Of a DNA stretch of 64,000 nt, positions 18,870-62,243 are shown piece after piece (the stretch's first letter is position 1; the number at the start of each line of letters is the position of its first letter). The stretch lies in contig NMRA01000122.1 of NCBI GenBank assembly GCA_002633005.1, positions 62,255-126,254 on the forward strand, written 5' to 3'. The DNA is from Phoronis australis (taxonomy: Eukaryota; Animalia; Phoronida). The notes beneath the pieces were generated by a model that saw only the letters and a program-made list of their open reading frames with translations, was not told the DNA's origin and made no database searches. A program made the translations under genes and the position numbers.

Positions 18870-24256
<5,387 letters not shown>

Positions 24257-24580: not shown

Positions 24581-24688
<108 letters not shown>

Positions 24689-30706: not shown

Positions 30707-33700
30707 TTATCTAGGGTCGTTGCAGCTAAGACCCACCTCGGCAAACGCCGAGGTCACTTCTTTCGTGGAATAGCCTTCGTCACGTGCTGCGCTCAAAACA
30801 CCGCATACTCCACTATTAAAGGTAGTCGTCTTGTCCCAGTAGATTTCGTTAGCTATTGCGAATACTTTAAATGTGGGAATGATTCCGAGACCTTTTTCTT
30901 TCGCGAGAACGCAGAAGACTCGGTTATAAAGACCAGATGCAAAGTGGATATTCAATTTGGCATGGTATTGACTATAGTGGGAAATCGATCGACCGTCTAC
31001 GCGTGGATTGCACATGTCTCGCAATCCAAGATTTGGAAGCTTAAAAATGCTAGCGCCAATTTTGTAATCGTTCGTATTATCCACATAATGTTCTACAGCT
31101 TCACCAACCATGTCGCAGAAGGCTTCGTCGATGGCACCTGACTCGCCCCAGTATTCCAGATTAGCATTGCCTTTTTTGGCAGTAAACCCGTGGCCTATTT
31201 CGTGACCAACAACGTCGCAAGACGTCAAGGGATAGCTCAGGTTAGACGCACGGTTACCGTCACCGAAAAAGAAGTATGAGTTGTAGTAGAAAGCGGTATC
31301 CCAGTTATATCCAACATGAACTGCAAGGTATATCCAACCGTCGGTTGGTAAAGTGTTCAGAGTATCCAAGAAGAACCGTTTCACTTTGGTGGCGCAGAAA
31401 TGCGCATCGCTAAGAGCAGAATATCCTCCATTGACGGAGTCATACATGTTTCCCTCGGTGCAGCCGAACGTTTTGGGGTAGGGTGGCCAACTCAGGCCTT
31501 TTTGGAAGTCGTAGGTCGACACACCCGATGTGTTCAGGCTGCAGACCGTTTTCGCTGTGTTCGACGAAACCGACAACGGTGGATACTTACTGTTTGCTTG
31601 GGAGGAATACGTGTGCTTCCCCGTCTGAAAATTACATTTAACTTGGTACAATGCGATAGGAAAGACGAATTTTGCTCCTTGTAATAAAGCTTAATATTTT
31701 AACGTTTTTTTTTATAACAGAAGGGACCATATGATAACTGCGAATCTGTACTGTACATGTACAATTTACGAATAAGCTGACAATATGTAAATAGCCATGA
31801 CGTTTGCAGCTAAACAGACGTTTCATGAAAATGGAAGCATTTCAAAGCAGCGTTCTGTAAGAGTATTTCAGTACTATTTACTGGGAAGTGGTCACCGGCA
31901 CATCGAACTATTTCAATATTGTACTAAATCTGGTGATTTCACCCACATGTGGTTTCGTAACCTGCTTACACCATTGATGCATAGAGGGATTTAAAGGGGT
32001 AGTCTGTAGGTGTTTAGAGATTTCGTGAGCTTCTCCAATGCGAAAATTGTGGTTAAGACGTCCTAAATCTATCAGTGTCAGCCAAGGCGCCACCCATGGA
32101 CGATAAAAGAACTAAAATATTTCCTAAATATGTGATTAAACATATTCTGTGGTTCTTGGTGGCTGTTCTTTGCCGAAGCTGTCGTGTGGCTCACCTAAAG
32201 CGTTAGTGAGGACTTCGCAAGGAGCTCTTCTCGCTGGTTCCCTACGTGCCTAGTTAGCACGCTGCGTGATGGCTACCGACCTCCTGGCGACACGCAGGGA
32301 ACCAGCGAGCTCTTGCGATTGAATAAAAATCAGACGCATATTTCGTTTTGGTGGACAAGTCGTGATAGCGGTTTGTAGAGTTTAGCGGCCTCTTCGGAAA
32401 TTAGAAATTTACAGTAGTTACAATGTTCGACAGTGGCTCATTCTTTGAAGCAGCTTGTCGAACTGAAGTTTCGACGGTTGGAGGATATTTCAAGTGTATT
32501 CTGAAGCCAGGGTTGAGTTACGTAGACGTAAGAATCTCGTGAGTCAAGCTAGCTATTCTAGCTGCTATATCTGGAATGCACCAGCGATATCTTAAGAAGT
32601 CACGTTTGCGGGATCTTACGTTTTCGCGAGCCAGGTTCTCGCGTATATGGAACGTTCCCCAGAATTTAGAATGCATGACATCACGTTTTCTCGTGGAAAA
32701 CAATTGTACAAAGTGGCTGGCAAAAGAGTACGAAGATATACCTACTGCTCGAGTGCTTCTTACCTCCCCGGCCATCGTAACATATCGATATTTTAAATCA
32801 AGCCCTCAGGTTTTCAAAATGGCCCGATTTGAATATCCATTTGCTTGAAACATCGTGTGTTCTGTGTTGATAGGCATGCAGATACATGTCATGTAGTTTG
32901 GACATACGAAAAGTTTACTGCCATAATAGGCCTGACTAATATTTTGCTATCTAAAATAAATTTCACTGGTCCAACACTTACTTTTGTCGTTCCTCCAAAA
33001 CTGTTGGCCAGATAGGGAAACTGTTTTTTCAAGTTATCCCAAGTTTTCCACACGCGCCCTCGTTTCTTGGCGTCTACAATACACAACGGGCTCATCGGTT
33101 GACGGGGCGTCAACAGGAGATAAGTAACCACATATACTAGGCGAGGAGGCGTGTAACGTCTGTTGTGCAGACTTGAGGCACGCGATGGAGCTTTTTTCCG
33201 TAGTTTTGGAAGACCTGGAATTAAAATTTCAAATCTCAATCACTGTCTTGTGTTTTGGTAATACGACATATTTGTCGAAGGCGAATTGAGAGCGTACTGC
33301 TGCTGTGGGGGAGAGGAGTGGAAGCGACTAAGTAGGCCACATCATTTGCAACAAACACTTCGATGGTGATTCAAAAAATTCCCTAGATTTGTGTAGTTAA
33401 AAAGGAATCTGTTGTAGAGTTTCGAACTCCCAAAGGTACCGTCGTAGATAAATTTGTCAGAAAAGAGTGCCATTTTGTGGGGTAAATTGCTCTTGAACTA
33501 GTCAGTACCCTTTTGAGGTGCATGTGCCATAAAGTCTTCAATGGAAGAGGTGTGAAACAACACTTAGCGGGTCTATCCATGAACGTTTTCAACTATGTAA
33601 AACTGTGATATTTGTCGGTGAATCTGTCGCCTTGGCCAGTAGGTTCCTGGATTAGAGCAATGAGTAGCATTTGGCTTGCAGGAAAGCGTTACGTTCGTGT

Positions 33701-36700
33701 TTGTTAAAATTTACCTGGATGAATGAAGAGCTCCGTATGTGGTTTCTGTATACCCGTTTTTGGATGGCCATGGGCTTTTCTGCAAACATCAATGGCCTCC
33801 AACGGTTGCAGTCGTGGAATTACTGCGCTTCTGTCTGCAAAAGTCGTGTTTAAATAGTCTGTTATTTCGTACCGCCCTTTCTACCAAATTTGGAGAATAT
33901 GCAGTCACTCATAAACACGTATGTATGTATGGTCCCCTTCCTCCTCAACTGTGAAATTGTCACTGAAACAAAATCCAACCAGTTCACAATGTATTTTTAC
34001 GAATTCTTTGTAAAAATTTTGAATTTCTGTTGACTTCAAAGCATTTTTCTTTTAGTTTCAAATTTCAAAAAATTGATCTGTCAACAGCTGGTCACTTTGT
34101 CGATTTTGTCACACAAGGTGAAGCACGTCTCCTTATTTGGTTGGGCAAGACAAAGATGTACCACATTTCCTTTATATGACGTTTGACCTTTGATGTTATC
34201 AAAACAATGTCGACTTCAAGCAGCAGCCAGTCCGATTAAGAAGCAACGGAAGTAAGTCTTAATTGTTTGAAGCTAGGAACTAGTTCCTAGTTTGAAGTTA
34301 GTGTCAAAGGTGTCGTAGTATTCAAAAATATTCTAAAATGCACTAAGAATTCTGTTTGGGATATAGATGCTTCCCTGGCTTGCCTCATACTGTGCTGTCG
34401 ACCTCAGATTGGGAGTGCAATCACACGTGATCTGCCGTTAATATCCATCTTGTCAGTCAGCTTTGACCGCATGCGCGAATTTGTCATTAAGTAGCATGGA
34501 GATTAGAAACTATGTGGTGACTAAGATTTTTTTTCTTAGCGCGTATTTCAAAACTCGTGGGTTTTGTCATTTTTGTGGAAACGCCCTTAAAGGGGAAAGT
34601 GAATAACTCTGTAGTAGACGTTGCCAGACAGCACTTTCGTCATGAACTGTTTAAAGGATATTTTTGTATGTTATAAGTACCTTTTGCGAAAAGAGAATAC
34701 AAATGGTGTATTTCACATAAATAGGCCTTCGGCCCACGTTACAAATATATAATAAACAGTTCAGGATTTCCAAACCAACACATCAACAAACTCATTTCTA
34801 CTTTCCTGGACATTAATTAATATAGTTAGCAATTTTCTTCAAGTTATGTAAATCATGGATCTGTAGGAGATCCCTGAATACTGCTTCATCCACCCTCATC
34901 GAATCTATGTAAAAACTATTGTGCAAATCAGAATATAATTTACATTCTATAAGATAGTGAATTTCTGAGTCCACATTTCCAGTATTGCTGCAGGGACATT
35001 CTCTCCTCTCTAACTGCGAAAAGAGAGTCACCTTAGGAGGCCGTTGATGTCCTTATCTCTACCTACTCGAACAAATACTCCCGAAATCAAACTATTTTCG
35101 AACATTCCTTCGTCCAGTTGCCCAAACAAGCCACTGTCCACTTTTTACATTGCTGGCGCCAGGGGGTATGGTCTCGTTCGAGCTGAGAAGAGTTAAAGAT
35201 ATCAAATACCTGGCAAGGTATCCGTCTATTCACAAAAAGTACTTATAGCAACACGACTCTGTTGGTGTAGTCATTGTGAGGCATAAGTCGCCGAAAAAAG
35301 TCCGGCGTATGGCTGTCCGCTGAGATGGTCACCGTCTCTACAGTGGCTAGTGGTAGTGTCTAGAGCCCTGTCGTGCTTATTCTTGATCTCTGAGCCGAGA
35401 TGACCAAAACGGAGCGATGTGTATCGCGCTCCACCCGGCTACTATTGTGCGACGTACCGTAAAGCTTTAAAAAGGTAACACCTGTATATTTGGTTCCTAC
35501 AGTATGTTAAGAGCATCAACCTGATCCCAACAGTGCCATAAATTGCCAAATGTTGGCTTATTGACTTGCTTTTGCCTACGTCACCGCGAGAATCACCTTT
35601 TAATTCAAACAGCTGCGAATAACACCCGCTCGCAATGCTGTTCTATTCAAATCCCTACTTGCGCACTTTGATGGCGCTGCAAAAATGATTGTTGTTTGTT
35701 GTTAACAACCCAAACGTGAAAGCGCGCGTGTTTCAAACACGCAGAACCATTGTAGTTTGAATATAACAACTCGTTTTCAAGCCCAATTAAATGTGGAGTA
35801 ATAATTACATGTAAACCAGTACACGTCACTGATGAAAATACCTTTCAGGAACTTTTTTAGCCTACGAGCAAGCCTGCCTGTCGTCCAACCTGTGTAAAAT
35901 CCACCTGAGATCTCTGTGACAACATGTGACCCGTAGACTGGCACACCGTAGTATTGCTGCTGTAACTTAACCTGGCAATGACCGACATATTTAGTACTGA
36001 AACTCAAAAAAGCTTTAAGGCAATGTAGATGTGTGACAGAATTGACGAAACATTTGCTGGCAAGATGGCTTAAAGAACAAAATATCCAAGTCGCCCGGCC
36101 TATCGCTTAGACAAACTGGATTACTTGCGGCTATTCTCTTTGCCTAAGGCTGCGTCACATGATCGATTTCCTGTAGTTAAGCCCGTTACCCCCCCCCCTC
36201 AAAGCCTTCTGAAATGCAGACATTTTTTTGTGTGTGGTAAACCATAAACAAATGACGTGGAACCGTAATCAGCCGTCGTATAGACAATGTCTTTCGGATG
36301 TCTTTTAAAGCTGTTGTTAATTATTTCATTAAATAGTTTTGGGATTTTAAAAATCGAACAGCCAACTCTGTTAATTTTACTTGCTGAAAAGCATCGTGAA
36401 AGTTATTTTATCGACATTTTATAATTAAAGCGTAAGGCAGCAATTTTAGTGTCATTTTTGGTTAAATTGCGATGTTCTGATTATCTTTATTAAATATTTA
36501 AATCAAATAAATTTTCCCTAGATGTAACTTATTATGCATGCAAATTTTACGACCTGAATTGTTCCCCACCAGTTTGGAATTTATACGGATTTTGGACAGT
36601 GTTTGACAGCGGATGCGTCTTTGTTTAACTCAGCACAGCAAATCAAAGCAAGACAATTATTATTCTTGGTGGCGACCTTAAACTCCCAAGCTGGTTCTGG

Positions 36701-39700
36701 AAACGAGTTACCTCAAACTGAATGCACCATACCTAAATATCCATGCCCTATCCAATGTACTCGACCAGATCATACAGTAGTCGACAAGGAATGGAAACAC
36801 CACAGAGCTTATCTTAACAAACCAACCAAACCAGATTAACCGTAACCAACCCCTTCTTGGTATGAGCGACGACGACGGAAGATGCAAACCCAAAGACCAA
36901 CTCCGTTTTATAATAAGGCCGATTGGGATATATTATGTAACCACGGGGGTAACCAAACTTAGAAGATTACACTAGAACCTGGCTTATCCCCCGAACATCT
37001 GTGGCGGGAGTTTAAGGGTGCCTTGGCATCCCTCACAATATGTCCAAACGATTTGAAAGTAAACCTTGGATCATTCTTGCCGTTCAACATAAAATGAAGC
37101 AAAGAGCTCGATAAGTATGGTCATGAAGAAGACGAATTGTTATTCCGTAGGCTGCGGAGTTAGTTTCAATCTTATTGAAACTATACTGAAAACGCCATTA
37201 CCCCCAAAGGATGATAACCAGTTTGGTTCAAAGAAAACTTTTATCAAGCATTAAAGTATTAACAGCACTAGGACAAAAGAAGAAGAAAAGCGGAAGGAGA
37301 AGGAGAAGGAGAAGAAGAAGAGACGAAGAAGAAGAAGAAGACAGAGAAGAAGAAGGTAGAGGAGGAGGAAGAGAAGGAAGAGGAAAAGTTATTTGTTTTC
37401 CTCGAATTCTTATTCAGTTGATGCGTACCGGTATGTAAGCATCATGAACTCTAGCCTAGTATAGAAGTTCCGTTTCACAGACTGCCAGTGGATGGCAAAA
37501 TCCGTCGGAGTTGACTAGTTCGTGTGAAGAACGCTAGTTCACGTCACGACCGGTAAAAATGTCGCGCATAATGCAAACGTCATTTACATGTATTGTCTGA
37601 TTACGAAGGGAGCGTGTGCGTGGAGTCATGAGCGTTAAAGATATTATGATGAAGGATGTCATGCCGTCCGCATTTCCCTTTTGTCCTCCGACGCCATGTG
37701 GTATTAGCAAGCTGCAGCCTCTGTAGTGTCTCAAGATCACGAACTTGATGTCACCTGTGCCTGTCTTTGAACAGCCATCGCAGCGTTCAAGGCAGCACAG
37801 CTTCACCATGAACATGATTTACGTATTTGGCTGACTCTAGTCATTTCCCGTCCACTGAATATCAAGGGGTGGTTAAATCCCACTAAATTGAGTTCTTGTT
37901 CAATCTAGGAGTGTCTGAGAATACACGACCAAGGCAAATAACTAGGGTACTGTTTTGGAAAACGTATAATAATCTAACAATGCCCACATTGAATTGTGGC
38001 ACAAACAAAGCTGGTGGGGATTGATTCGGTGAACGCCACTTCCGGAATGACGACTGCATAATTAAGTATAATTAACCAAGGGAATTTGATAAATTGACAA
38101 TTTATTCAGGACAATCAAAAAATTGCAAACAATGGTATGTAATTTATATCAGTTTCACACGAGATGACCACTGAACAATTCGCTTGCTCCTTACGTTTCA
38201 AAGGTGACGCAGTTCACTTCTCCAGTTGAGGAAAGCTAGTATTTTTGTAGACCTACCAATGTTCTCCTACCTTGACTCTGCCTCGCCGAGTTTTGAAAGA
38301 TTTCATGGAGCGCAAAGTTTCGTCTTTTCCAATGTCAAGTGTAAACATCAGTTTGGCCCGAGACATTTTCGTGCGCATGCCAAATCCACTGCGGTGTATA
38401 TTGACCATTTCACTGGACCCGGGATATATCACGGAAAGCGGAAGAAGCGCTGAAAGAAACAAAACGGTGTGCACTCCCCTGGGGTCTTCAGAAAAAATGG
38501 TGCTAGTGCGCCTCCAAGAGGTAAATAACAAAAACGCATTTCAATGCGTTTGAATCGACAAAAGTAAAGACATCAAAGCTCTTGAAATGTGCAACCATAT
38601 TAATAACTGACTCGAGAAAGTGACCCACTCCAATAGCTCACGCAAAAAGTGTCGAACTTTAACACTTTATATATAAATGACCCATAAAGAATCCCCACTG
38701 ACAGAACATTCATAAACCATATGTATTTGTCACCAATCGCAGTACTAGGGTTGACAAAATGTCTACCCAAATGAATTGGTGGAGTCTATACCCATATCGA
38801 TATCAAAATAGGCGAAAACTCTAGTAGAGTGTCACATGTGTATGCAACAGTGCCGCAAGAAAGAATCATGGGGAATCACTGAATAATGAGAAAAGTGATT
38901 TTGGGTTGTCAAGTAGATGCCCGTATGATGGCAATGGTAGCAATGGTATTGGTCTTTTTGTTGATGATCGTAATGGTGGTAGCAATTGTTAAGTGATGGT
39001 AACGGAAGTGATGGTGGTTCAAACCTGTTACGTGTGACCTCCCCTTTATAGCGTTAATAACTGAATTTTACAGGGCATTATTTCTACATTTTCCGATTGC
39101 TATTTTAATGTCTCTATACACAAACAGAAGAGAGCCGACAAGCATGGCAGTCTACGTTTATTTGAAGGGGAGTAACGTAATTATTAATACCTAAACGCCA
39201 GTTGAAAATCTCATGTGTATTTCATACCACAAAACTATGACGAAATTATGACCACTCCAGCTTTAATTATACGGTTAAATAGATATTAACTTAGCGACAT
39301 AATTTACATAGGGTACATGCCACATTATTGGTTTTTGAAGACAACTGACAGGCACGATGGGTCATTAACGGTACTTAACAGCAGGTTGCGCTTTTCGATA
39401 TTTCCAGAAAAAAAGATTAATTGCAATTGACCTTAACTATGCATTTTAATTTTCCATTTTAATTTTCCATGAGTCACATACGAACTCATCATGAGTACGG
39501 AGTTAACTCGCCTTCTATCACAGAAACTAACTCTTGATGTAGACAAAGAAGCCTTATGAAATATGTCTTAGAACATTTCCTCGATGAAGTTAGCAGCAGT
39601 AATTTTAGGGCTTCGAACGAACTGGCAGTTGTATTCTGCTTGATTTCAAACTGGCTTATCAACGCGGATGATTTCACGTGTGGCCGCGTCTTGTCTGAAG

Positions 39701-40599: not shown

Positions 40600-42364
40600 G
40601 TGATTTTACACCATGTTGTATTGCATATTTCATTCCTGTGACTTTTGCGTTTTTGTGAATTCAAACAGTAAACTATTAATTTACAAATATCTTGACACAA
40701 CCTACCGACACACAAGACGAGCCCTGGAACCATGCTGACAAAGTGAGTCTCATAGAGTGCAATGACACAGCATCTGCAAACAAAATGAAACTGAGATCAA
40801 CATCTTGTGCAAAACTTAGGTCGTCAAAGAGGTAAGTATGAGTTTTGCGGAAGGTCAGTCAACATACCAGTTCACTGTTCAATTACGTTCGTCTCTACGT
40901 TTACTTGTAGGTTACTAGAAAATAAGATATGTACAGTACATTGTATTTATTACATTTCACTACTGTGATTTAGAAATATCTGCCCTCGCTATAACTGTAA
41001 AGCTTTGTTCGGATCAAAACGCCGGTAAGCTCAACGATCTAACTTCAGGAAAGAGATCATCCAGAGTATTTTAAACCTCAAAAACTCATCATGGAGCAAA
41101 CACCAGTGATTGTTATGGCGGACTCAAAGTTTACCAGGTAAAAAAATCGGGTTTCGTCAAAAATTGCAATCGTACTAGAAAGTGGCTCTCAACAAAAACA
41201 TTTTCCAAAAACGTAGTATCCCTGAAGACATGCAACATGACATAATCGATTTGACAGCCTAAAATTTTTTTTTCATTATTATTGTTTGATTTTATAGGTT
41301 AATTAGCTTTGACCACATCAACAAAACGCCAAAATCCATTGTGTTTTGTGATTTTATTACAATTTGTCAATTCTCACAGTTGTCTACCGCTGAAAGCTAT
41401 CACCGGTGATTATCCAGTTGCAAATAATCGAATCTGGGTTAGCCAGCTTTGGACTGCGACTGTTTCAGTGGTGGGGTTAGTCTCAGAATACCACTTTTCT
41501 TGCCGGAAAAAGTTCCAAATTTGGATAATTTAGGAACATCATATCTCAGAAATCGTTGATTGGATTCATACGTAACGTTCAGATATCATGCTTTATGGCT
41601 AAATACACAAACTTGTCAATAAGGTCCTGCGTAATTTTAAGTATACGTCGCTATAGCTATATATTACTTGACCCTAGAGGTTTAACCAGGCTCAGAGCAT
41701 CGCTTCTGAAATATTCTGTCACTATCACCAATTTTCATCACAATGCCTAAATAAAAAAAGAAAATTTATCATTAGGAAATTGTCGGAACATAGACATTTG
41801 CAAATGTTTATTTCTCGAAAACGTACCTTACAATGTCAACACTTTACAAACTTCACATGCCCTCCTTAAATACTTAACAAGATACTAAATTTATTATTTA
41901 TTTATTAGTAGCAGTTTCATTTATAAAATTCAATTTCTTCACTTCTGAATATACCTTAGTTTTGGGAAAGTGAAATTCTACGTAGGATTCGTCTGTCGAC
42001 AAACACATACAAATCTCTTCGCGCTTATCCTCGCACCCTTTAGCCCACTCAACATAATAGCATCTAATGTACTGTACCTGTTCCTAATGACACCTTCCTC
42101 TGTCTTGATTTCAGTTTTGTCCAATTGTTTTATAGTGATAGCGCAATTGTAGAAAATTTAAATTGTAACATAAATCAAACTTTTAATGGGTGGACGATTG
42201 TTTTTACCGTTGGACCTCGATTGCTCCCCCTCTCAGGGCTACAACGTCTTGTGAAGTTGATCGATTATTGTGAACGCATCAACAGAATTACACAAACACA
42301 ATTGGTGTACAGTGATTATATCAGCCAACTCAGAAATCAAGCATTTCGGCACCGTCTACATTAA

Positions 42365-43786
42365 GGGAGGAAGCAACCTTTTTCATGTCATTTTTAGTAA
42401 CAATACGGTCAGTTCCTTGATTATCCCAGACATATTTGTCAGCTAATGACGGCTTCCCGTAATTTAATTAATTAGTATTCTCCTATTCCGGAAGTGACGT
42501 TTAGGGTATAGAATTTCCCGCCATTTTGTTTTCACATTGTCTGACAATGTGAGCTGTCGAGTTAGTCATTGTTTTACCTCAGTTGTGATAAGTTCAGTCG
42601 TCGTTTGCATTTGTTTAAGAGTCAGTGAACATGTTGCGCGGTTGCTTCCTTCCGGGACGTACTCGTTATCGTCTCACGTGCCATTACATTGCGCTCCGAC
42701 GGATGACATGCTCCGCCTTCCTTGGCTCGTTCGTGTGAAGAACGCAGTGTTACCCGACCAAGGAACGTACAAAGTAGTGGAGAATCAGCGAGTGTGCGGC
42801 AAGCATTTTCTGCCATCGGATAACGAAAGATACCTGAAAGTGATGAACGTTCCTGAAAAACAACGCCTGGAGAAGGGTACCGTTCTGTCGATGTTAATGC
42901 CCGGCAGTGTCTCCTCGCCGCTCCCGAAAAGTGCATTTTTGAAGCGAGAAGCCTCGCGAGCTTGGGTTCCTACAGGGATTCGAGGCTCTTCAAGTATTGT
43001 CATCCTATCCAGCCAGCAATAGTTGTATGAAGTCCATCGTCAAAAAACAGCTGTTTGTAGCCAGCCAGCTATATTCAATATACAAATTTGCACCAACGCT
43101 ACTGTCACAAGTGCCTCCGAAGGTATCCCTAGAGCGTGCAATTCCGGGAACTAACATTGGTTTGCCCTGTGCTGACATTGTTTCCAGCCCAGCAGCCCTT
43201 CAGCGATGTTGAATAATGGGGGTGAATACATGTACAAGCCCAGTTCGTCATCAGCCAGTGAGGAGGACAGTTCGTGGTCCAGTGAACACTAGTGCCGGTG
43301 AACCAAACTTTGATAAGCTTATTGTGGACTTGACTAGAGCTATTTAGAATGTGCCAGGTGTACGGCGAGGGAGTCACACGGTGGGATGTAAGCTGTTTGG
43401 GTGTTCAGGTTTCCAGCCGGTCAATGTGAGTGTGTCGAAAGTGGGACACTCGGGCAAGTGAGACAGTTGTTCGTCCGTCTGTTGGATGCCCGTCGGAGGT
43501 CCACTTTACCATGCTTTTCACTGGAAACACCTTTCGGTGAAGACACTGACGGACTTCGGTTAAGTCAAGTTGTTTTCCAAGACGACAGTAGAACAGATCC
43601 TCACAGAAAACTCAAACACCGAAGCAAAATAGCTGGAAATTCTAAACCCCTAAACTTCAGTTCCGGAATAGAACAATATTAATTAATTTAATTACGGGAA
43701 GCGGTAATTAACTGCAAAAATATGTCTGGGATAATCAACGAACCGTATTTTTCACTAAAATGACTTAAAAAACGTTGCTTTCTTCT
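42365..43786 (+). mobile_element. Non-autonomous Kolobok-like DNA transposon with decayed THAP-domain transposase
   Basis: TTAA at 42361-42364 and 43787-43790, with ~170-bp imperfect TIRs. Internal RVCGKHFLPSD...RLEKGTVLS (THAP C-H and AVPT-like motifs). Confidence 0.75.
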
Positions 43787-44787: not shown

Positions 44788-46389
44788 TTGTAATATGTTG
44801 TTCGGAGATTGGATGAGTAGTTCCCCAGTGCATCACACATACGGAATATTTCTGAAAACGGAATATCACTCTTCCCGGTACTAGGAACGCTTTGTTTTTA
44901 CTATGCCATGCACTACATGCACATACCGTTATAGGATAGTGAGCCATTATAGGTCGAGGCGCTTGAGCGCTAAAAACGGTAGTCGCCCTTTACCGTTCAT
45001 ACGAAGAACACACACATACGGGAGCGTTTGTACCGCATGGGCGGTTCCAATGCAGTACTGGGATACAAATCGTTCGCACAGATTTGAACAAACATAGTAA
45101 CTTCACCGTCAGATGTATCTCATAAAGCTACTCTTGGAAAGCGTACTTTCGTTCTGAATTTCCGTGTTAAGAAATTTCATGAGAGGGGGTTCTTATTTGT
45201 CTTCTTGAGTTTGTCCGACTTCTGTCCAAGTTGTGAAACGCGACGTCATTTTACCACATTGTGGTAATGTAAAAAAATTTACTTCTACTTTCAACATGTA
45301 AACAAATAACATCTCTAGAGTCCCAAATGTAATGACACTCTAGTTTGAATAAGCATTTTAACTGGGAGCAGAAATTTTCTTGAAAAAGTCGTTTGAAAAC
45401 GATATTTGAATTCTGTGTATGGTTTTGCCCATTTCTCCACACTAAGAACATGCAAGGAACTTTGCTTGATTTGTAACCGTATCCAGTGTATGTGGGTATT
45501 TAGGCACACGCGCCAATATCCGAACTAATGCATTTTTCAAAGAAATTTGTTTTCGCATGAGTTTCGCATATCGGCGCATGCTCCAAGTTTCGATTCTATG
45601 CGCAAGTGGGTGTCTTTTGTTGAGGCTCACACCTTGCTGTAGATACACGTAAATGCACACAGATTGTCCTTGACAAAAGCGAACTTCCGTGAACGTGCAA
45701 AACATTTTATGTGAGTTGATTTGATTGCTGCAATCCTAATTATAATTCAAATAATACCAAATTCTTTTTATGATATGTGAATTTCTTTGTAACTAAGTAG
45801 GAATGCCAGCTAACAGCTCAGACCAGTGACTTATTGTATGGCAAAAGTGGTTTTAAAGTTTTTATCTTAGTTCGTAAATTGTGAAACATTGCATACATTA
45901 ATTAAACTGGATCTGAGTATTGTAAACGTTTGAAAGGAATTAAAAAAGATGTTTGCGTGACTTGAACCATTTAATGAAACGTCACCAGTGAAAATGCCCC
46001 AAGAGTTTTCATCGGAAAACAACGCAAGTGTTTGATATGTGCAGACTGAATACGTGCACATGCAGGGCGTCTGGGTGTTTTATGCGGTTCTCATATAGGG
46101 GCATGCGCCCAATTCCGGAATAAGCGCATGACGGGGCCTAAATGTTCGCATATACTGCAATGGGGAGAAAAAACAGTGATGAGTGGCGACGCATATCAGC
46201 TTGTAAGCAGCCCTTCATCGATGTTGAGTAATGGGAGTGAATACAATTCCAGTTCGTCATCAGCCAGTGACATGCTAACTTGATTTATTTTTGGTAAATG
46301 ATACTCGGTTTTGTCTTGTGTGTAGAAAAATTACTGTGTTGTGCTGACGGCCGGCCTGAAACTAGGGATCATTCAATGTGTGCCTGACA

Positions 46390-46870: not shown

Positions 46871-47829
46871 TTTCAAGCACTTATGGTCATAGTGCGAAGG
46901 GTTTAAAGCGTTCCCACGATAGATGTTTGCACTTTATGTGATTTTAGATCGTGTATAAAAACTTTATCACATAAATCTAACTAAAAACACGTGTTTTGGG
47001 AAATGATTGAGAAATTTTGAGTTTTCAAGAAAAAATTCATTGATTTTTTCCTGCCACGTGATGACATCAGTGGAAGATGTTGATCAGTTGACAGCATATA
47101 TGCAATGGTGGATAATGATTTTGTAATTTACACAGACTTAGAGAGCGAGCTTGACGAGTGTTAAGGAGAGGTAGGTATGGAGATGAAGGTGAAGACAACA
47201 CTCTGGCCATATTGGCAGACTTTTCGTGTTTGAGGCCGTACCAAATCGAACTTCCCGCACCGGCGTCTTCGGCGAGTGAAGTCTAGTCGGAGCCTACTCA
47301 GTCTCCGGCCGTCATGATTGAAGAGCTGATATTTCTAAGTGGTAATTATAGCCTTAAACTAAACCACAATTTAATTTTCTAACCGATTTAGTGTCAAACT
47401 GTAAGTTTTTACATTGACTGTCTAAGCCCAATCTCGAAAAGCGGTCAAATTGATTTTATTGCTTCGAAGGCCGAGTGCGTTTGTTAGGAACCATCATATT
47501 TAATTGTGATGGTTACTGGATTTTATTTCTATCAAAAAATTATAAAACCTTAGCTAGATTATGATTCGTCAGTTATTTTGTTCCAGTGCCCGACTCTAGC
47601 TTCCGACTGTGCCGGCTGCAGTCGTGATCTCAAACTGTTTTCCTGGCATCTGTATGCATGCCATTTTCTACGATTGAGGTTTGACATCTATGCAGATAGC
47701 ATGCATTTCCACAAAATCTTGAGCAAGAATACATTGTCACAATTTCAAACTGAGGATGATGATGCTCAATGGACCTAGGTGCCTAACAACGACTTTCGCA
47801 GCAATGGTACAACAAAAAGGACTATTTTT

Positions 47830-48280
47830 GCATTTTTACGCTGGAGAAACCTTTATCAAATCTTCGTTTCTGTGACTGGTTGAAGCACGATTCTTTAAAA
47901 TGGGCCAAGTACAGCGTATCCATGAACTGACGAGTTGCTCCACCGTGTACTGCCATACCCGCGTCCGATGAAGCATGTCAGAACGTATATCATTTCTGGG
48001 CAATCCTAAGGTCTTCTTGAAACACAAATACTGAAATATTGTTTGTCCGATTGCTATTACTGCATCCTCCGCGCACGCACATTTTCATAATACTAGTCAC
48101 AGGCAATATGTTTTCGAAACTATTCTGACTTACTGTTGGTGTAGAACAACACAATGGCAGAGACCGGACGTCAGACAAAACTTGTAATATTTCTAACTTT
48201 TGCGTTTATTTCTTGATTACAAGTATACAAATTGAAGAAAAAATATTTAAAATATGATACCAAAGTTGTTGGTAACCGAA
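47830..48280 (-). mobile_element. THAP-domain transposon remnant, copy 2
   Basis: MKMCVRGGCSNSNRTNNISVFVFQED (THAP C-x4-C start). Homologous to 46390-46870. Confidence 0.55.
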
Positions 48281-48701
48281 CCGTGTTGTCCGTACAAACT
48301 CTCTATGCCCGGACTTCTCATGATTTAGAGAACTGAAGCAATTTATGGTGGTGCTGACTAGTGCATCTTTGTGACACGATCCATTTTTTTTCTGCAGTCT
48401 TAGATTTACTGCAAACCTTTCAGAGTAGTTTTGCATTCCCTAGAAAGTCGCATTTGTAGATAGTATTTCACTTAAGAAATATCGTGCATATAACCAACAT
48501 GTCGTTCCAATTAATTTATTGATATATATTTGAGTACTTTTCTCTTTTTTATTTAAAACTTCACCGAGACAGGGGATGTCGATGACTAGTTTCAGTGTTC
48601 ATTTTCAATACTAAGAGTACCTGGTTTAATTTAGCCACTGATGTTCTTGCTTATCATGGGTCTCGGTAACTTTTTCCACGGGTTCTGAATATATTCACTC
48701 A

Positions 48702-51700
48702 TCAACTTGACGGAGTTGCAGTAGTGGCGTTTGTGTTCGGCGGACTTGTCGGTGGAGGTGGCGGAGGAGGACATACTGCGCCTACAACTTTGAAAGCTGC
48801 AGTCACGTCAGCCTTGCTAAAACCTTCGTCTTCGGCGGCAGACTCTACCCCGCAAACGCCGTCATTGAAGTTAGTGGTTGTATCCCAGTATCTTTGGTTG
48901 GCCCGTGCGAACACGATAAATCCCTTTTTTATATCCCATCCCGGTTTATGGACAAGAACGCAAAAAGCTTTATTGTATATACCACTGCTAAAATGGCCAT
49001 TCATTCCCGCCTGCCAGTTACTCACGTGATCTATGGATATTTTGTCTGCTGTTGGAAGACACAAATCTCGAAGTGCATATCCTTTTTGCCGGAATATCTC
49101 GTAGCCAATTTGGAAGTCGTTTCGGCCGTAAATATGATGTTCGATAACTTCACCTACGATGTCTGAATATGATTCGCTTATTCCGTGTGCTTGTCCCTTG
49201 TTTTCTAAATTCGAATGTAATTCAGTAAATCCATGCGCAGTCTCGTGCGCTAAGACGTCAGCAGAGACCAGAGGGTAAAATGTGTTGTTACCGTCTCCGA
49301 AGAACAAATAGCCGTTATAGTAAAATGCGTTCTCATATTCTTTACCAAAGTGACAGAACAAGTGAAGAGAATGTTTGAGAGGAGGTTCGTTGAGATACTT
49401 CATGAATGCCTCGTGAGTTTTGCCGCCCAAAAAGTGCGCATCACTGAGAGGAGACGCCGCGCCGTTTTTAGCATCCTCGAAGCCGTCGCTGCATTTGAAT
49501 TCTTTGGGATCATATGGTAATGTCCAATTTCCCTGCATGTCGTACGTCTTAACATTTGCATTTTGCAAGCTACACTCAGTTCCATTCAAATCTGTAACAG
49601 CCGATAGTGGCGGGAATATCTCGTGTTTTCCATACTTCCACATTCCAATCTGGAAAACAAATGTTTTTATTGCATGATTTGTACAGACTTTGTAGAGTGT
49701 TGCGAGATGGAGTATGTCAATGGAACAGAATTTTGGAAATCCCTAGTGTGCATTGCGCAATGCTATCATAAAAACAAATCGTTTAGTCGTGTACTTGAGT
49801 TTGAAGCAGTACTTATATAGTACTTACAGTTTGTCTTTGAAATTTGTCAATAATTGTTATAATGATTACGTTATATGGCGAATGATTTAGAACGAAGTCC
49901 TGTCCACATACAGACTTGCCCTAGAATAACTTGCACATGTGCAACTTGCCCCACTTTAAGCGGAGTGTCCACACACATGTACCCGATACCTTGCGCAATA
50001 AGGCGTAAGATATTACTTTGCGCATGACAATGAACAGCTCATTCGAAAAAAGACCCGAGTGTGTGTATTTGCGTTAGAAGTGCAAGTTACCCTAAAACAA
50101 GTTACAGTATCTCGATATGGTGGAGTAAGGTGTCTCGTGTGTTCAAATTGCACTAGATTTAACAGCGTCCAGAAAACCCCCACACCTATCGACAACTCAC
50201 GTTCCAGGAGTAACTTGTTTTAGGTTAAATTTATGATTTGAGGGTACTCTTTAGACCACACAATGACATAAGGAGCGAAGTAGAAACTCATTCCCAGTGG
50301 TCGTCATGTTCCTAAACCTCCACACGTCTTTACACCAGCTTCCTGTTCCAAAACAAACTCTTCGAATAAACCCTAGGCAATCGATGACACATTTTGTCTC
50401 CCATATTTAAAAAGGTCAACCCATTTTGGTTGATTCCAAATTCATTTAGTGCCTATGATAAATGACGAGAAAGCTGGTGATAAATAGTGAACCAGCTGAT
50501 GATAAATTGTGAGCCAGCTGATGATAAATGATAAGCCAGCTGGTGATAAATGATGATCAGGCTGATGATAAATGGTGACCCAGCTGATGATAAATGGTGA
50601 GCCAGGTGATGATAAATAGTGAGCCAGCTGATGATAAATGGTGAGCCAGCTGATGATAAATGGTGAGCCAGCTGATGATAAATGGTGAGCCAGCTGATGA
50701 TAAATGATAAGCCAGCTGGTGATAAATGATGAGCAGGCTGATGATAAATGGTGAGCCAGCTGATGATAAATGGTGAGCCAGGTGATGATAAATGGTGAGC
50801 CAGCTGATGATAAATGGTGAGCCAGCTGGTGTTAAATAATCATCATCCATAGCTGCACCATTCTTAGATCATTGTTCAAAGATAGGACCTTCATAAACCA
50901 TCACGAAAATTATATCAAACGTTAATATGAATTCTTATGGCCCATTTGTAATATATCATACAGCTCATAGAAATTCAAAGAATTGGGTGATACCAATTCA
51001 TATAAAATCTTTTATAATAAATTATGATCAACTACAATTGTCTGTCTGCATAAAAACGTCCATAGATGGCTTACACAGCATACTTATGATCGTGTTTATT
51101 GCTGTACAGTATTTTACATATTCATATGCATGTATTATACATGTAGATATACATGGAGTATACATGCGCATATACAGTGAGTATACATGAATTTTCCATA
51201 TACATGTATACATGTAGTACATGTACATAATGATATAGCTTGCATGTGCATGTATCTTTGAATATATTCATCAAATCATTTATTTGTCTTACTGAACGTT
51301 TTTAGTTTTGTCTATTAAATCGAATATTCTTTGTGGATTTGCCACCCACTCGCCTTTCAAATTGAGAACACCAGATAACAGGTACACCCAGAGTGCGCGT
51401 GAGGGCGATAATGAGTACATCCCGGTCCGCAGCAACTGTGTGGCATTTTGACTGACTCGTAAACAAAGCAAACTACGACCGAACTTATCACAACCGAGGA
51501 AGAACAATGACTGAATCGATATGCTCACACAGTTAGGCTATATGAAAACAAATCTGGCCTGAACTTCTTGACTCCCTCAACGTCACTTCCGGAGTAGGGC
51601 ACGAGTAATTAATTAAATTACAAAAAGCTGTAATTAACTGAAAAATATGTCTGGGATAATCAACGAACCTCATTTTTACTAAAAATGACATAAAAAGATT

Positions 51701-53182
51701 GCCTCCACCTTTAACGTTTGATGCACAGTGAGCAGCGGTGGAGAATTTTGTGCACACTGACCATAAAATCATATTACCTTCTCATTTCCTCCAACACTGT
51801 TTACGTGGCGCTGATATATGAACCTTCCGATGTTTGATAGACCTTCCCAGGAGTCGATAATTTTGCCATTTTTGGCGTCGACAATGCAAACAGGTCGTGT
51901 CACAGTTTTGGGCGACGAAATGAAATAGTTTACCTTGTAAACTAGACGATTTTTATAATGTCCATGCGTTTTGTAACCTGAAAATCGAGATTTTAGAAAT
52001 TGTATTGCATTAGAGGTTAACAAGCAGGGCTAACAAGATAATGGCCCCAATAGACACCATGCTTGTGAACTCACCTCAACAAATATTGGCTATTCTCTGG
52101 ACGTCAAGACGTCCGTCCACCCTTGTCGTCTGCAACTTTGTCCCATGTTAGCTGTAGTCGTCAATGAGCACCATCCCTCCTCTAGTTGATCTGGGAGTTC
52201 CAATTCTTTCCATCGTCAAATGGTTTCGTCCAGTTTATGGTAGTAAACAAATGTTAGCCCCAATATCTCACTAAATATCGGTTACTGGTCCCCTTTTCTG
52301 ATCGTCAAACGTCGATTCCCCTTTTGGATCGTCAAGAAATTTTATCACCACTCTGAACGCCAGTAAACCCTGTTGCTCTGGTCGTCAACAAGTGTTGTCC
52401 TTGATCTGGCAATCTACAAGCCTCTTCCCTCGTTTGATCGTCTTCATCTCCGCTCTCCTCTGTTTGTCAACAATTATCGTCCCTGCTCTATTCGTTGAAA
52501 GCCCCGTTCTTCATCTGGTCACCAACAGAATCTTATCCATAACTGGTCAGTTTTACTAGAGCTCACAAACCATGTCACAAAATTCGGTGCTCTCAAAAGT
52601 TTTGACAGCTTAAGATAGTTGTCGTGGTTCACCTTGTCACTATGATATAACATGAGCTAGTGGCATTAGTTGATCGCTTAACTCTAAGTGAATATTGTGC
52701 TGAACTGAATTTGTGCAACACAAAATTGTGAAACCATCGATGCAGAAATAAAAACCTCTTATCAGCTCCATATTGTGAGTTTCATTCCTTAAAACGGATA
52801 GGAAATCGCTGTCCGTCCATTTCAAAATTGGGTCTCAAATTGATGCTTTGGGTTATCAGAACTGAGAGTTCGTTATTACCTATAAAGCCAGGCTTTCCAG
52901 GTTGACTTGTCACGGTGTGTCTTTTTTATTCGCCAAGCATGGTCTAGAGCATCAACCTACTGGCAGTTCTTTACAGTACGGAACAAGGTTAGTTTCTTCA
53001 ACGGAGCGCTGAAGCTATTGCTGCTTTGAATGCACAAAGTCTGCCAAAGTCAGTGTAAACCGCTGATTTTTGTCCTTGTGCGTGCGTGTGTGAGTGTGCA
53101 TGTGTGTGTGTGCGTGTGTGTGAGTGTGCGTGTGTGAGTGTGTGTGTGTACGTGCGCGTGTGTCTGTGTGTGCGTGTGTGTN

Positions 53183-53225
<43 letters not shown>

Positions 53226-56200
53226 ATGTGTTTGTATACATAACAGCGCAAAAGCTGACAACCGACTGTTCGAAGTTGTGTTCATCAGAGGGAAGATCAG
53301 TGACGGTACCGTTCTATAACTAATGTTTCATTTTTTTCCATTTTCGTCTACGACACACGTGCGTATTTGAAAATATGAAAGTCCGCTTTAGTTGTCAACA
53401 AATTAAGTCCGTCGTCTGGTGATAATTGAGCCACGTCCCTCTTTTGATCGTCAATATTGCAACTTGCGTTCCTCCTCAGGTTGTCCACAAGTTACATGTA
53501 CGTTCCTCCAGGCTTAAATGGCAAGACACGAGCCAGTTCCACGTATTTAGCTGACTGCACAGATGCTCTGTTCAAATACACACAGATATGGGCTGGGTTC
53601 CAAGGAGCAGTTTTTGCAAGTAAAGAGCTATCACAAAGATCTTCGTTACGTGACTTTCTTCATTATATGAGAAGACCGTGGTCACAACAGGATAGAGTTT
53701 CGTAGGGGCAAGAACCTCGTTAAGGAAGCTAGTGTGATCACGTGCTTCGCTTGCAATGCATGGCGGAGACCTCGCGAAGACTTGGCAGTTATTGCTTTCT
53801 CACAAGAAACTAGATCTACCGAACGCACGCATGTTTTCACTCCAGAATGTTTTGTGTTGCTGAACGGGCAGAGGATAGTGATTTCAGTGCCATAGGGTAT
53901 TTTACACGGGGATGAACATTCGTTCTAGGCGTTCATCGTTGCACCTCTTATATTTAAACATAATAAAAACAGGCTACCCACACAAACAGCTCACTCTGTA
54001 TTTATGATCATAGCTCCTCACTTATGAACACAACTCACAAAAACGTGTCTGCACGAACAAAACACTTACTATGCGCCCAAAAAGCATGCCCCACACACAG
54101 GCTCTCGTCCAATCACAAAACATGTGAAGTCAGCAGTGTTCATAAAGTGTAAGTGAGGGGTTACATGTACGAGTACACTATACTAATCAAAATTGGTGGC
54201 TGTATAAATTAAATAGACCATACCTGGGTGAATAAACAGCTCGATTGAAAAATCATCGACTCGCATTCGTCTGTGACCATTTTTTCGTTTACATTTACGA
54301 AGCGCCTTCATCTTGGGTACTTTTGGTCTTACATCACCTGTAGGAATCCAACCGGTTCAATATCGAACATAATTTTATTCAACAAGAGAATCCAGCAGAA
54401 GTTTTGAAATCAGACTTTCAGATGAGTTTGAACTATTTTCAGCTTTTCATGTTCTAAAAGTTATTTTAACACTGACACTAACTAAGTTTCAGTGGCGAAT
54501 TTAAGAGGGGGCAAAGGTTGTCATGGATCAGGGGGGAGGCAAATGTCTGAGAGGCAAAACCCTGGCTAATATTCTGCCCTACCCCCCCGCTCAAAATCCG
54601 GGATCCTCCTTTGTCAACAGACGTTTTCAGTTAACATAACCCTGGTGTGTTGCGTACAGATGGTTACGCTCGATTCCGGGACTCACCTGACTTACGCAGG
54701 TTTAGACAGGTCAACCAGTTAGAGCATCTGATTGGTTTGTGAGTAGGAGTAGTCCTCCTCGGGAACCAATCAGGACCCGGTGCGTCTTGCTGAGGCAAGA
54801 CACTTGCGAAAAAGGAAAGAGAAGAAGAACGAGTATGCGCGGGATTTTACTAGCCTACCCAAGCAAAATGGCGATCAATTAAGTATCATTGATGTCTGAT
54901 TGATGAGTTTGGAATGTCGAAATACGGAATAAAATTCACTGTTTTTGTGCAATACGTGAAAGTTTTTCGCCACAGTGTCTTGCGACTATGGAACGCAGCC
55001 TACTCTGGATGGTTAACCCGTTTGACCCAACATACGCCAAGTCCAACCAAAAATGCATTTGTATTCACTCATTTTCAACAAAGATCTGAAATGAACATAG
55101 CCCTTCACACACTTTATGAACGTAAAGTGTTGCATGAAACAGTCACAAATAAGGACTCAAATAAGTTGTCTAATTTTTTTACCTATTTGTGTCTTTGTTC
55201 ACTCACAGATTTAATCTCTTTACTATCATTTCATCTTTATTGTGAGCTCCTTTTTAACTAATTACATTTTTAATGATATAACTAAAAACTAATCCCTGAT
55301 TCAATGAAAATAGATAGGGACTTAGTCGTTGCATGAAAAGATCCCGCTAAATTTTCGATTGCATTGAGAATTAAACATACGTCGAGGTTACTCTCGATTT
55401 GTATCAAAGCCAACAGTTGACTTGGTAACGAAACTAAAACAGCATAAGAAAGGACAATCGGTGTTTTCATAAGTCCACAAATACACGGTAGATTTAGGGA
55501 ACATATTTTAGCAACTATCTGGGACTGTTTCATGCAACCAAGCATCCCCACCTTTCAAGTCCTTAGTTAAACGTCTGGCGGCGAAGCCCGCAGCGTCACC
55601 AGTGAAAGCACCCGCCTCTGTTTCGGCAACGATTGACGATCCATAAATGGGAACATTTTTATACTTCAGTTCTAGTCGAGCCTGAAGCAACATACATATG
55701 GTTTATACCAACACTTGTGTACTTTTAACTCCTGTATCTCCCGTTGACAAGAGCGCAAGGTGATGTAGGTGATGTAATTAGTCTTTGACAATAGTTAACT
55801 CCCGTATGTGGAGCCTGCAAAACTTGTAATAGATCACGTGAAATGTAAAACAATTGGACATTGAGCATAATTGTAATTGGACTAATTTATTGGCGTGAGC
55901 ACATTTTTGCCACTGTAGTAAACCAGCTCATTTTTTAACCCTGCTTTCCGCTCACCAGCCAACAATGCAATTTCAAAAATGTTTTGTAAATTACGAATAA
56001 TACAAACCCACAGATATGCTTTCTGACAATGCTATAAATCAATTAGTTTGTTTGGATCAGATTCTAGTCACCTTTTTCTTTCCTCTTTTTGTCTTGAAAC
56101 GAGTACGTTCAAACAACTCTTCGTCTTTTTCCATACCAAGTTCAAATTTAAATCGATTCCTCGTTAGGCGAACCCTCTTCCGATTTTTTTTAATTCGTTC

Positions 56201-56469
56201 TTGACTTGTCTCTTCGACTTTTCCCTTTCTCGCTTTGCCTTCATACAAAACTTCCATAAACTTTTTATTTGCTTTCTGTGTTTTTTTTCTTGACTTCTGC
56301 CATCTCTCTATAGATCCCTGTATGGTATCATGCAATCTTTCTTTAGATTCAAATTTGAATTTTTGCAGCCTGCCTATTTCATCCTGCTTGCCCGCGCGTA
56401 CTCCATTCAGTCTCACTTTTGCTTTCGTTTTCCCCGTTATTGCAGCCACCGTGCATAAACATGACACCA
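48702..56469 (-). CDS. M4 zinc metalloprotease preproprotein, paralog 2 (5' end not located); exons 56469-56072, 55681-55552, 54337-54224, 51977-51778, 49649-48702
   Basis: GT-AG junctions with the same phases as paralog 1. ARLELKYKNVPIYGSSIV (FTP), ELFIHPG, RLVYKVNY...CIVDAKNGKII (PepSY), GGNEK/IG, SPLSDAHF, YENAFY, FFGDG, YPLVSADVLAHETAHGFT, GISESYSD, HFSSGIYNKAF, PGWDIKKGF.VFARANQRYW, CGVESAA, VTAAFKVVGAVC. Confidence 0.92.
50468..50830. repeat. 22-bp minisatellite (~16 copies) in an intron of M4 paralog 2
   Basis: Unit gagccagctgatgataaatggt, repeated head-to-tail with minor variants. Confidence 0.95.
51370..51713 (-). mobile_element. Left end of the Kolobok-like family, inverted
   Basis: Reverse complement matches 42361-42690 (TIR plus gtgagc...gtcattgtt...gttgtgataagttc) and ends at TTAA. 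Confidence 0.75.
53077..53232. repeat. (TG)n microsatellite
   Basis: Directly visible. Confidence 0.98.
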
Positions 56470-62164: not shown

Positions 62165-62202
62165 TTATTATTATTATTATTATTATCATCATTATCATTA
62201 TT

Positions 62203-62243
<41 letters not shown>

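What the first reader, a model, noticed from the sequence alone, without database searches (positions are those of the whole stretch)
30707..56469. Tandem pair of intron-containing bacterial-type (LasB/vibriolysin-like) M4 proteases in an animal-like genome
Seen: two co-oriented genes with complete M4 architecture (signal, FTP, PepSY, catalytic domain with HExxH, the third Zn ligand in E-x3-D and the active-site His). They are split by canonical spliceosomal introns at equivalent positions and phases; one exon is 130 nt in both and both have an ELFIHP-G junction. They sit beside a conserved animal gene (CAPSL) among eukaryotic transposons. Known: M4/thermolysin is a predominantly bacterial family, and the C-terminal half (HxSSGxYNxAF...PGW...ANxxYW...CGV...VTxAFxxVGxxC, no PPC domain) follows Pseudomonas elastase/vibriolysin. 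Inference: an ancient horizontal transfer from a gammaproteobacterium, intron gain, then tandem duplication and divergence into a secreted protease family (digestion, toxin/venom, mucus, matrix or shell remodelling, or defence). The ORF track shows only fragments; several exons (33715-33834, 54224-54337) are not in it.
Basis: partly seen in the sequence, partly recalled or inferred. Interest (0 to 1): 0.85.

Follow-up and report, generated by a model that had tools for sequence, protein, structure and literature searches.

The report
Bacterial-type protease pair in an animal
An invertebrate genome carries two neighbouring, spliced and expressed genes for zinc proteases built like the secreted elastases of bacteria; they likely descend from an old gene transfer from bacteria, and relatives are already on record in molluscs, a lamp shell and a moss animal, so this is a new member of a little-studied family.

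Summary
Two minus-strand genes (535 and 605 aa, 42% identical) each have six coding exons with intron phases 1,0,1,1,0. All 10 junctions are seen in stranded RNA reads of one run; both genes are nearly or wholly silent in two others. Both encode peptidase M4 of the LasB/vibriolysin type, with zinc ligands, catalytic Glu, His, Arg, a Ca site and LasB's disulfide cysteines. Trees put the two as sisters inside LasB-type bacterial diversity, near Rhodanobacteraceae enzymes. AU tests settle neither the donor nor the number of transfers. It is not unique: scallop, abalone, Lingula and bryozoan M4s are in databases, octopus bacterial-derived Zn-metalloproteinases were published in 2018, and this scan found an abalone copy earlier on other DNA. 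Distinctive here: none of the five introns is shared with the other intron-bearing M4 loci examined, the propeptides are very basic, and active-site second-shell residues have changed (gene B lacks the Tyr157 equivalent). Likely role: tissue-restricted secreted protease; untested.

The parts
40706..40733 (-). Gene A coding exon 1 (ATG at 40733, 28 nt, start of signal peptide)
   Evidence: Junction 38449/40706 in 93 reads; in-frame ATG chosen from frame and hydropathy
38271..38449 (-). Gene A exon 2 (rest of signal peptide, start of propeptide)
   Evidence: Junctions on both sides in RNA (93 and 87 reads)
35842..35971 (-). Gene A exon 3, 130 nt, FTP motif
   Evidence: Pfam FTP above cut-off; junctions 87 and 82 reads
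33715..33834 (-). Gene A exon 4, ends in ELFIHP-G
   Evidence: Junctions 82 and 45 reads
32982..33214 (-). Gene A exon 5, PepSY-like region and first residues of the predicted mature enzyme
   Evidence: tblastn to bacterial M4; junctions 45 and 71 reads
30707..31624 (-). Gene A exon 6: M4 catalytic domain (HEIGH at about 31204-31190; E397, H457) and stop
   Evidence: Pfam M4 4e-20, M4_C 5e-30; peak RNA depth about 90x in X1
29501..30706 (-). Probable 3' UTR of gene A (far end not defined)
   Evidence: Stranded X1 coverage continues to the edge of the stretch laid
58299..58326 (-). Gene B coding exon 1 (ATG at 58326, 28 nt), outside the finding's coordinates
   Evidence: Junction 56469/58299 in 11 reads
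56072..56469 (-). Gene B exon 2: signal end and propeptide start, with a Lys/Arg-rich insert of about 70 aa
   Evidence: Junctions 11 and 5 reads; residues 21-150 are 35% K+R
55552..55681 (-). Gene B exon 3, 130 nt, FTP-like
   Evidence: Weak Pfam FTP; junctions 5 and 8 reads
54224..54337 (-). Gene B exon 4, ends in ELFIHP-G
   Evidence: Junctions 8 and 6 reads
51778..51977 (-). Gene B exon 5, PepSY-like
   Evidence: Pfam PepSY E 0.0016, under cut-off; junctions 6 and 30 reads
48702..49649 (-). Gene B exon 6: M4 catalytic domain (HETAH at about 49247-49233; E449, R484, H509), Pro/Thr-rich tail, stop
   Evidence: Pfam; PDB LasB E 2e-75; model pLDDT 91, Foldseek TM 0.86-0.88 to vibriolysin and LasB
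21028..24662 (+). Neighbouring calcyphosin-like (CAPSL) gene, approximate span; context only
   Evidence: Two exons match PDB calcyphosin-like protein; full exon set not modelled

Best explanation
These are two expressed, intron-containing host genes for LasB/vibriolysin-type (M4) zinc proteases, likely secreted, that likely descend from an old transfer out of a proteobacterium and likely serve extracellular protein breakdown in one tissue or stage. Shown: gene structure, splicing, sample-restricted co-expression, family and fold of the B model, conserved catalytic core, and sister position of A and B. Inferred from the family (recalled mechanism): a signal peptide sends a pre-pro-enzyme through the ER. 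The FTP/PepSY propeptide folds and silences the enzyme and is then removed by self-cleavage near the last intron. Zinc held by His, His and Glu activates water with the HExxH Glu as base, the His and Arg bind the scissile carbonyl, and a hydrophobic S1' pocket (Leu, Val, Ile, Leu kept) favours cuts before bulky hydrophobic residues. Inferred history: an intronless bacterial gene entered an ancestor, gained five introns in its pre-pro half, and was then duplicated in tandem long ago (no DNA likeness remains). The copies drifted at second-shell active-site positions, so A and B are probably slower or differently tuned than LasB. Physiological role, my odds: gut or epithelial-mucus digestion about 50%, matrix remodelling 20%, antimicrobial defence 15%, other 15%.
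For: 10 of 10 junctions in stranded RNA of run X1. X2 shows 4 of 10 junctions at 1-7 reads and X3 shows 0 of 10, at similar read numbers and with repeat-derived depth alike in all three runs. Hydrophobic N-termini in both. H140/E141/H144/E164/D168/R198/H223, Ca ligands D136/E172/E175/D183 and both LasB cysteine pairs are present in both genes (LasB numbering from the alignment). Best hits are proteobacterial M4 at up to 48-49% over the domain; LasB E 2e-75 against thermolysin 1e-17. All animal rows fall inside the LasB-type clade, 100/100 against distant M4 outgroups. In the catalytic-domain tree, A+B join scallop and Lingula (96/83) within a clade holding Dyella and Rhodanobacter (100/97). 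An extra cysteine pair is both present in 142 or both absent in 221 of 363 bacterial or unnamed rows, never split. It is in 28 of 28 Rhodanobacteraceae loci, and in A, B, scallop and the bryozoans. Octopus copies were amplified from hepatopancreas cDNA (PMC6011040). A Biomphalaria 'M4 family metallopeptidase' was among 4 secreted proteins shared by all water treatments (PMC9589101).
Against: No activity, protein or tissue data; run labels are coded. The AU test does not reject the animals lying outside the bacterial LasB-type set (p 0.26). In the propeptide-plus-catalytic tree the A+B/scallop/Lingula group dissolves into an open fork (83/91) with long branches meeting. The bacterial sample was gathered by likeness to gene B and to a bryozoan protein, which biases it towards Lysobacterales. 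Lingula, abalone and L013 lack the extra cysteine pair. Gene B has Asn for the Tyr155 (thermolysin Tyr157) equivalent (Tyr in 360 of 363) and His for a Gly that is invariant in 363 of 363. Gene A has Thr for Asn112 (Asn in 353 of 362). Activity could therefore be low.
Confidence: 0.72

Rival explanations
1. One very old transfer into an early spiralian (or bilaterian) ancestor gave all animal LasB-type M4s; introns were gained separately in each lineage and many lineages lost the gene.
For: Members occur in bivalve, gastropod, brachiopod, bryozoan and octopus. Monophyly of the 12 animal rows is not rejected (AU p 0.24). All 8 animal rows lie in one starred 19-row clade of the longer tree (96/82).
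Against: The best trees need 4 label changes; 0% and 4% of bootstrap trees hold the animals together. 0 of the 5 introns of A/B match the introns mapped in L035, L017, L013 or L003. The extra cysteine pair splits the animals.
Confidence: 0.4
2. Two or more separate transfers: abalone-type copies from one bacterial lineage, and A/B, scallop and bryozoan copies from Rhodanobacteraceae-like donors.
For: Abalone and L003 sit apart from A/B in the careful catalytic tree (98/97 together). The cysteine pair and the intron sets differ between groups.
Against: Backbone branches are short, animal branches long, and the single-origin tree is not rejected.
Confidence: 0.45
3. Gene B (or both genes) is a weakened or non-catalytic protease that acts mainly by binding, for example holding polyanionic mucus or matrix through its very basic propeptide.
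For: Tyr155 to Asn and Gly160 to His in B; Asn112 to Thr and Ser167 to Cys in A. Propeptide net charge is +27 in both, against a maximum of +19 in 323 bacterial or unnamed rows and -17 to -1 in 7 other animal or putative-animal rows.
Against: All zinc ligands, the catalytic Glu, His and Arg, the Ca site and the S1' residues are kept in both after deep divergence. One Watersipora protein also has Asn at the Tyr position.
Confidence: 0.15
4. Vertical inheritance from a eukaryotic ancestor (or organellar origin) with heavy loss; no transfer into animals.
For: The AU test cannot exclude the animals as sister to all sampled LasB-type bacteria.
Against: The nearest relatives are proteobacterial and share a subfamily-specific cysteine pair. 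The only named eukaryotes found were spiralians.
Confidence: 0.06
5. Bacterial contamination or mis-assembly.
For: Best database hits are bacterial.
Against: Ten spliceosomal junctions are confirmed in stranded RNA, with one listed base difference in each last exon. The genes sit among animal transposons next to a calcyphosin-like gene.
Confidence: 0.01

Closest known systems
Pseudolysin (Pseudomonas aeruginosa elastase LasB, PDB 1ezm, 7nlk) and vibriolysin MCP-02 (3nqx), peptidase family M4
   Same: Signal-FTP-PepSY-catalytic layout; HExxH plus Glu zinc site; His, Arg, Ca site, two cysteine pairs; fold (Foldseek TM 0.86-0.88, 42-44% identity); no PPC domain, like LasB.
   Different: Five spliceosomal introns; an extra cysteine pair; Trp115 replaced by Tyr in both; Tyr155, Gly160 and Asn163 changed in B; Asn112, Asn163 and Ser167 changed in A; much more basic propeptide; Pro/Thr tail in B.
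Octopus bimaculoides horizontally acquired Zn-metalloproteinases ZnMP1-7 (Liu et al. 2018, data paper PMC6011040)
   Same: Animal genes nested among bacterial homologues and expressed. The printed cDNA fragments, read by eye, carry M4 motifs (HExxH followed by NEAFSD; GGNK; ANxxYW).
   Different: The data paper does not name M4 or give intron positions. It frames the transfer within octopus and molluscs. I could not put these proteins in my tree.
Database-annotated spiralian M4s: Ylistrum 'elastase-like' XP_060074769.1, Haliotis XP_067678922.1, Lingula XP_013384835.1, Watersipora XP_067951641.1
   Same: Same Pfam domains; scallop and Lingula are the nearest rows to A+B in the catalytic tree.
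   Different: Scallop and abalone carry about 110 extra C-terminal residues. Their propeptides are acidic or neutral. Bryozoan-type metagenome loci have several introns inside the catalytic domain, where A and B have none after the first few residues.
M4 proteases of Rhodanobacteraceae (Dyella, Rhodanobacter, Frateuria)
   Same: Among the top-scoring hits (46-49%); share the extra cysteine pair (28 of 28); nearest bacterial rows by path in both careful trees.
   Different: Bacterial and intronless; sister position not statistically forced.

Membership tests
Peptidase M4 (thermolysin family) | Pfam Peptidase_M4 and Peptidase_M4_C above gathering cut-off | tested here: met
   A 73.3 and 105.1 bits, B 73.7 and 78.9 bits, against cut-offs 22.4 and 24.4
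Peptidase M4 (thermolysin family) | HExxH zinc motif with a Glu third ligand in E-x3-D about 20 residues on | tested here: met
   HEIGH...EAFCD in A; HETAH...ESYSD in B. The wider consensus (recalled as GxxNExxSD) is degenerate in both.
Peptidase M4 (thermolysin family) | Active-site His and Arg (LasB H223, R198) | tested here: met
   Both present in A and B
Peptidase M4 (thermolysin family) | Transition-state Tyr (LasB Y155, thermolysin Y157) | tested here: inconclusive
   Present in A; Asn in B (codon at 49202, no read difference listed there among the rows shown). Role of Tyr157 from passages of PMC7021514. A conserved helper rather than a defining residue.
Peptidase M4 (thermolysin family) | Thermolysin-like two-domain fold | tested here: met
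   Gene B model pLDDT 91; Foldseek top hits vibriolysin MCP-02, PlM4P, LasB. Gene A was not folded.
Peptidase M4 (thermolysin family) | Signal peptide plus FTP/PepSY propeptide | tested here: met
   Hydrophobic N-termini by hydropathy only, no signal-peptide predictor; FTP and PepSY hits partly under cut-off; propeptide BLAST to bacterial M4 E 1e-15 to 1e-21
Peptidase M4 (thermolysin family) | Zinc-dependent endopeptidase activity and autoprocessing | not testable with these tools
   Needs an assay
LasB/vibriolysin subgroup | Closer to LasB/vibriolysin than to Bacillus thermolysin; C30-C58 and C270-C297 cysteine pairs | tested here: met
   E 2e-75 vs 1e-17; four cysteines kept; inside the LasB-type clade 100/100
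Horizontally acquired animal gene | Physically integrated in the host genome, spliced and transcribed | tested here: met
Horizontally acquired animal gene | Nesting inside a bacterial clade, with the alternative topology rejected | tested here: inconclusive
   Nested in the best trees but AU p 0.26
Fungalysin M36 | M36 profile and fold better than M4 | tested here: not met
   M36 19.5 bits, under cut-off, in A only; Foldseek E about 1e-5 against 1e-33 for M4

The most novel reading that the evidence does not exclude
A secreted protease of Rhodanobacteraceae-like bacteria was captured once, before molluscs, brachiopods and this host's lineage split. It was kept across phyla and dressed with different introns in each lineage. 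Here it was duplicated into two co-expressed enzymes with strongly basic propeptides and re-tuned active sites, an animal protease family with no characterised member that I found. If the host is not a spiralian (not determined), the capture would predate the bilaterian split.
Probability: 0.3. Interest if true: 0.7.

Novelty: new member of a known kind. Interest (0 to 1): 0.45.

Why it matters
M4 is still described as known almost exclusively from bacteria (PMC7851659, abstract passage). Yet at least four invertebrate phyla or classes carry domesticated copies, and this locus gives clean proof of domestication: ten verified introns and restricted expression. It supplies intron and cysteine characters for asking how often animals took this bacterial enzyme. 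It also offers two natural active-site variants worth assaying. The basic phenomenon, bacterial M4-type genes in animals, is already in print for octopus and in database annotations, which caps the surprise.

Tried and rejected
No whole genome is held for this window, so other M4 copies in this genome and synteny could not be checked. The run finder listed no RNA holder by shared words; its runs came by species label. A 'longer' homologue search covered only 904-2580 aa and gave 12 non-animal or unnamed hits, so animal proteins of 553-903 aa were reached only through. The metagenome scan read about 12 of 64 parts. The ESM Atlas returned bacterial-dominated M4 clusters and no host information. 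Only 20 of the search hits were looked up for names, so more animal rows may hide among the unnamed ones. An unspliced gene B start with a one-base slip near 56500 was considered and dropped once the junction to 58299 appeared. The host phylum was not determined. No complex prediction was run, as no binding claim is made. The amphioxus HGT paper has no protease terms in its main text. Supplements of two HGT compendia could not be read and may list animal M4 entries. Ten literature searches found no cross-phylum study of animal M4; the library lacks most subscription journals.
Full report
Observation. The two long minus-strand ORFs at 30707-31690 and 48702-49742 hold M4 catalytic domains. Splice-site listing and coordinate splicing gave stop-free frames with canonical GT..AG introns. 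Laying three 2026 RNA runs (about 18-19% of each read) confirmed every junction in run X1 and revealed upstream exons. Gene A: 38449/40706 (93 reads), 35971/38271 (87), 33834/35842 (82), 33214/33715 (45), 31624/32982 (71). Gene B: 56469/58299 (11), 55681/56072 (5), 54337/55552 (8), 51977/54224 (6), 49649/51778 (30). The final models are 535 aa (A) and 605 aa (B), six coding exons each, intron phases 1,0,1,1,0, with the ATG 28 nt before the first donor in both. The ATGs are inferred from frame and hydropathy; 5' UTRs were not mapped. A and B are 42% identical over 466 residues and share no detectable DNA similarity, so the duplication is old. The window also holds a calcyphosin-like gene, a Pao retrotransposon and THAP-bearing inverted-repeat elements. 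Contamination is excluded.

Expression. Both genes are on in X1, faint in X2 (4 of 10 junctions, 1-7 reads) and off in X3 (0 of 10). Repeat-derived depth is similar in the three runs. This fits co-expression in one tissue or stage. The samples are coded, so the tissue is unknown, and three samples of one study are thin evidence.

Protein anatomy. Against PDB sequences gene B matches P. aeruginosa elastase at E 2e-75 and thermolysin at 1e-17. Its model (pLDDT 91) superposes best on vibriolysin MCP-02, PlM4P and LasB. All five introns lie in the signal, the propeptide or the first few mature residues; the rest of the enzyme is one exon. On an alignment of 387 catalytic domains I counted 363 rows, leaving out the 16 animal or putative-animal rows and the outgroup rows. 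Both genes keep the zinc ligands, catalytic Glu, Arg198, His223, four Ca ligands and both LasB cysteine pairs. Both depart at second-shell sites. A: Asn112 to Thr (2 of 362 rows have Thr), Asn163 to Asp (4 of 363), Ser167 to Cys (0 of 363). B: Tyr155 to Asn (1 of 363), Gly160 to His (0 of 363), Asn163 to Ser (2 of 363). Asp221 to Asn in both is common (29 of 363). Tyr157 of thermolysin is described as stabilising the intermediate (PMC7021514, passages); its equivalence to LasB Tyr155, and the roles of the other residues, are recalled. The 175 residues before the mature domain carry net charge +27 in both genes. That compares with median +3 and maximum +19 in 323 bacterial or unnamed rows long enough to measure, and -17 to -1 in 7 other animal or putative-animal rows.

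Relatives. The top hits are proteobacterial. Animal relatives exist: Watersipora (three named proteins), and, from name look-ups of 20 hits, scallop Ylistrum, abalone Haliotis and Lingula. Seven of the 42 metagenome loci were intron-split M4 genes (L013, L017, L031, L032, L033, L035, L037) and one (L003) was a stop-interrupted, abalone-like copy. Their host animals are inferred from likeness only. I mapped introns for four of the eight (L035, L017, L013 partly, L003). None falls in the column of an A/B intron, though L017 and most of L013 cover only the catalytic part. L013 and L017 share one intron column.

Trees. The careful catalytic-domain tree used 64 rows chosen mostly from a 176-row FastTree to span its clades. 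A+B are sisters (100/80), joined by scallop (99/73) and Lingula (96/83), inside a clade with the bryozoans and Dyella/Rhodanobacter (100/97). Abalone+L003 and L013 lie elsewhere. The 49-row tree that adds the propeptide keeps A+B (100/98) and places all 8 animal rows in a 19-row clade (96/82). It leaves the relations among them open and warns of long branches. AU tests reject neither bacterial monophyly with the animals outside (p 0.26) nor animal monophyly (p 0.24). One discrete character agrees with the best tree: an extra cysteine pair, never split in 363 rows, present in 28 of 28 Rhodanobacteraceae loci and in A, B, scallop and bryozoans, absent from LasB, abalone, Lingula and L013 (LasB). 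The bacterial sample is biased towards what resembles gene B. So bacterial origin from the LasB-type subgroup is likely, while the donor and the number of transfers are open.

How it likely works. A secreted zymogen is matured by removal of its own propeptide and cuts extracellular proteins before hydrophobic residues (family mechanism recalled; S1' residues kept). I favour digestion or mucus turnover. The support is indirect: restricted expression here, octopus copies amplified from hepatopancreas cDNA, and a snail M4 found in all secreted-protein samples. The basic propeptides may tether the zymogen to acidic mucus or matrix; this is a guess.

Literature. PMC6011040: whole main text read, no figures or supplements. 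It reports 7 Zn-metalloproteinases among 12 transferred genes; their identity as M4 is my reading by eye of the printed fragments. The companion Gene paper (doi 10.1016/j.gene.2018.05.013) was seen only as a reference. PMC9589101, PMC7851659 and PMC7021514: passages. PMC13350694: term search of the main text, no protease terms. PMC13342648 and PMC12637581: search listing only; supplements unavailable and they may bear on novelty. Ten searches found no cross-phylum treatment or biochemical study of animal M4.

Verdict. A real, well-supported pair of domesticated bacterial-type proteases, and a new member of a known but barely studied kind. Interest 0.45.

Noticed in passing
window 7500-12000 (-): Decayed Pao/BEL-type LTR retrotransposon (Pfam Peptidase_A17 at 9654-9953, DUF5641 at 7858-8076), cut by a 482-base N gap at 11194-11675.
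   Followed up: partly
window 42371-43780: About 1.4-kb element with terminal inverted repeats and a THAP domain remnant, lying between genes B and A. Related pieces lie at 46200, 51400-51700 (in an intron of B) and 60690-63340; transcribed on both strands in all three runs.
   Followed up: partly
window 50455-50837: 22-bp tandem repeat, 17 copies, in the last intron of gene B.
   Followed up: no
window 5883-6128 (+): Short ORF with a weak PHD-finger match, under cut-off, among broken ORFs at 4780-5800; possibly a transposon relic.
   Followed up: no
window 48908 and 31052: Read differences in X1: one changes Ala to Thr in gene B's last exon (23 of 23 reads); the one in gene A is silent (86 of 86).
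   Followed up: yes
L003 700-2091: Abalone-like M4 copy in an AT-rich metagenome contig, with four internal stops and one propeptide intron: a probable animal pseudogene.
   Followed up: partly
L013 300-5090: Divergent intron-rich M4 gene that shares an intron position with bryozoan-type loci but does not group with them in the careful tree.
   Followed up: partly
L002 62-3554: Two M4 genes in tandem on an intronless, apparently bacterial metagenome contig.
   Followed up: no
P0113 (scallop): This scallop M4 also has an altered edge strand (VAQF for NAFW) and Asp for Asn163, so second-shell drift may be general in animal M4s.
   Followed up: no
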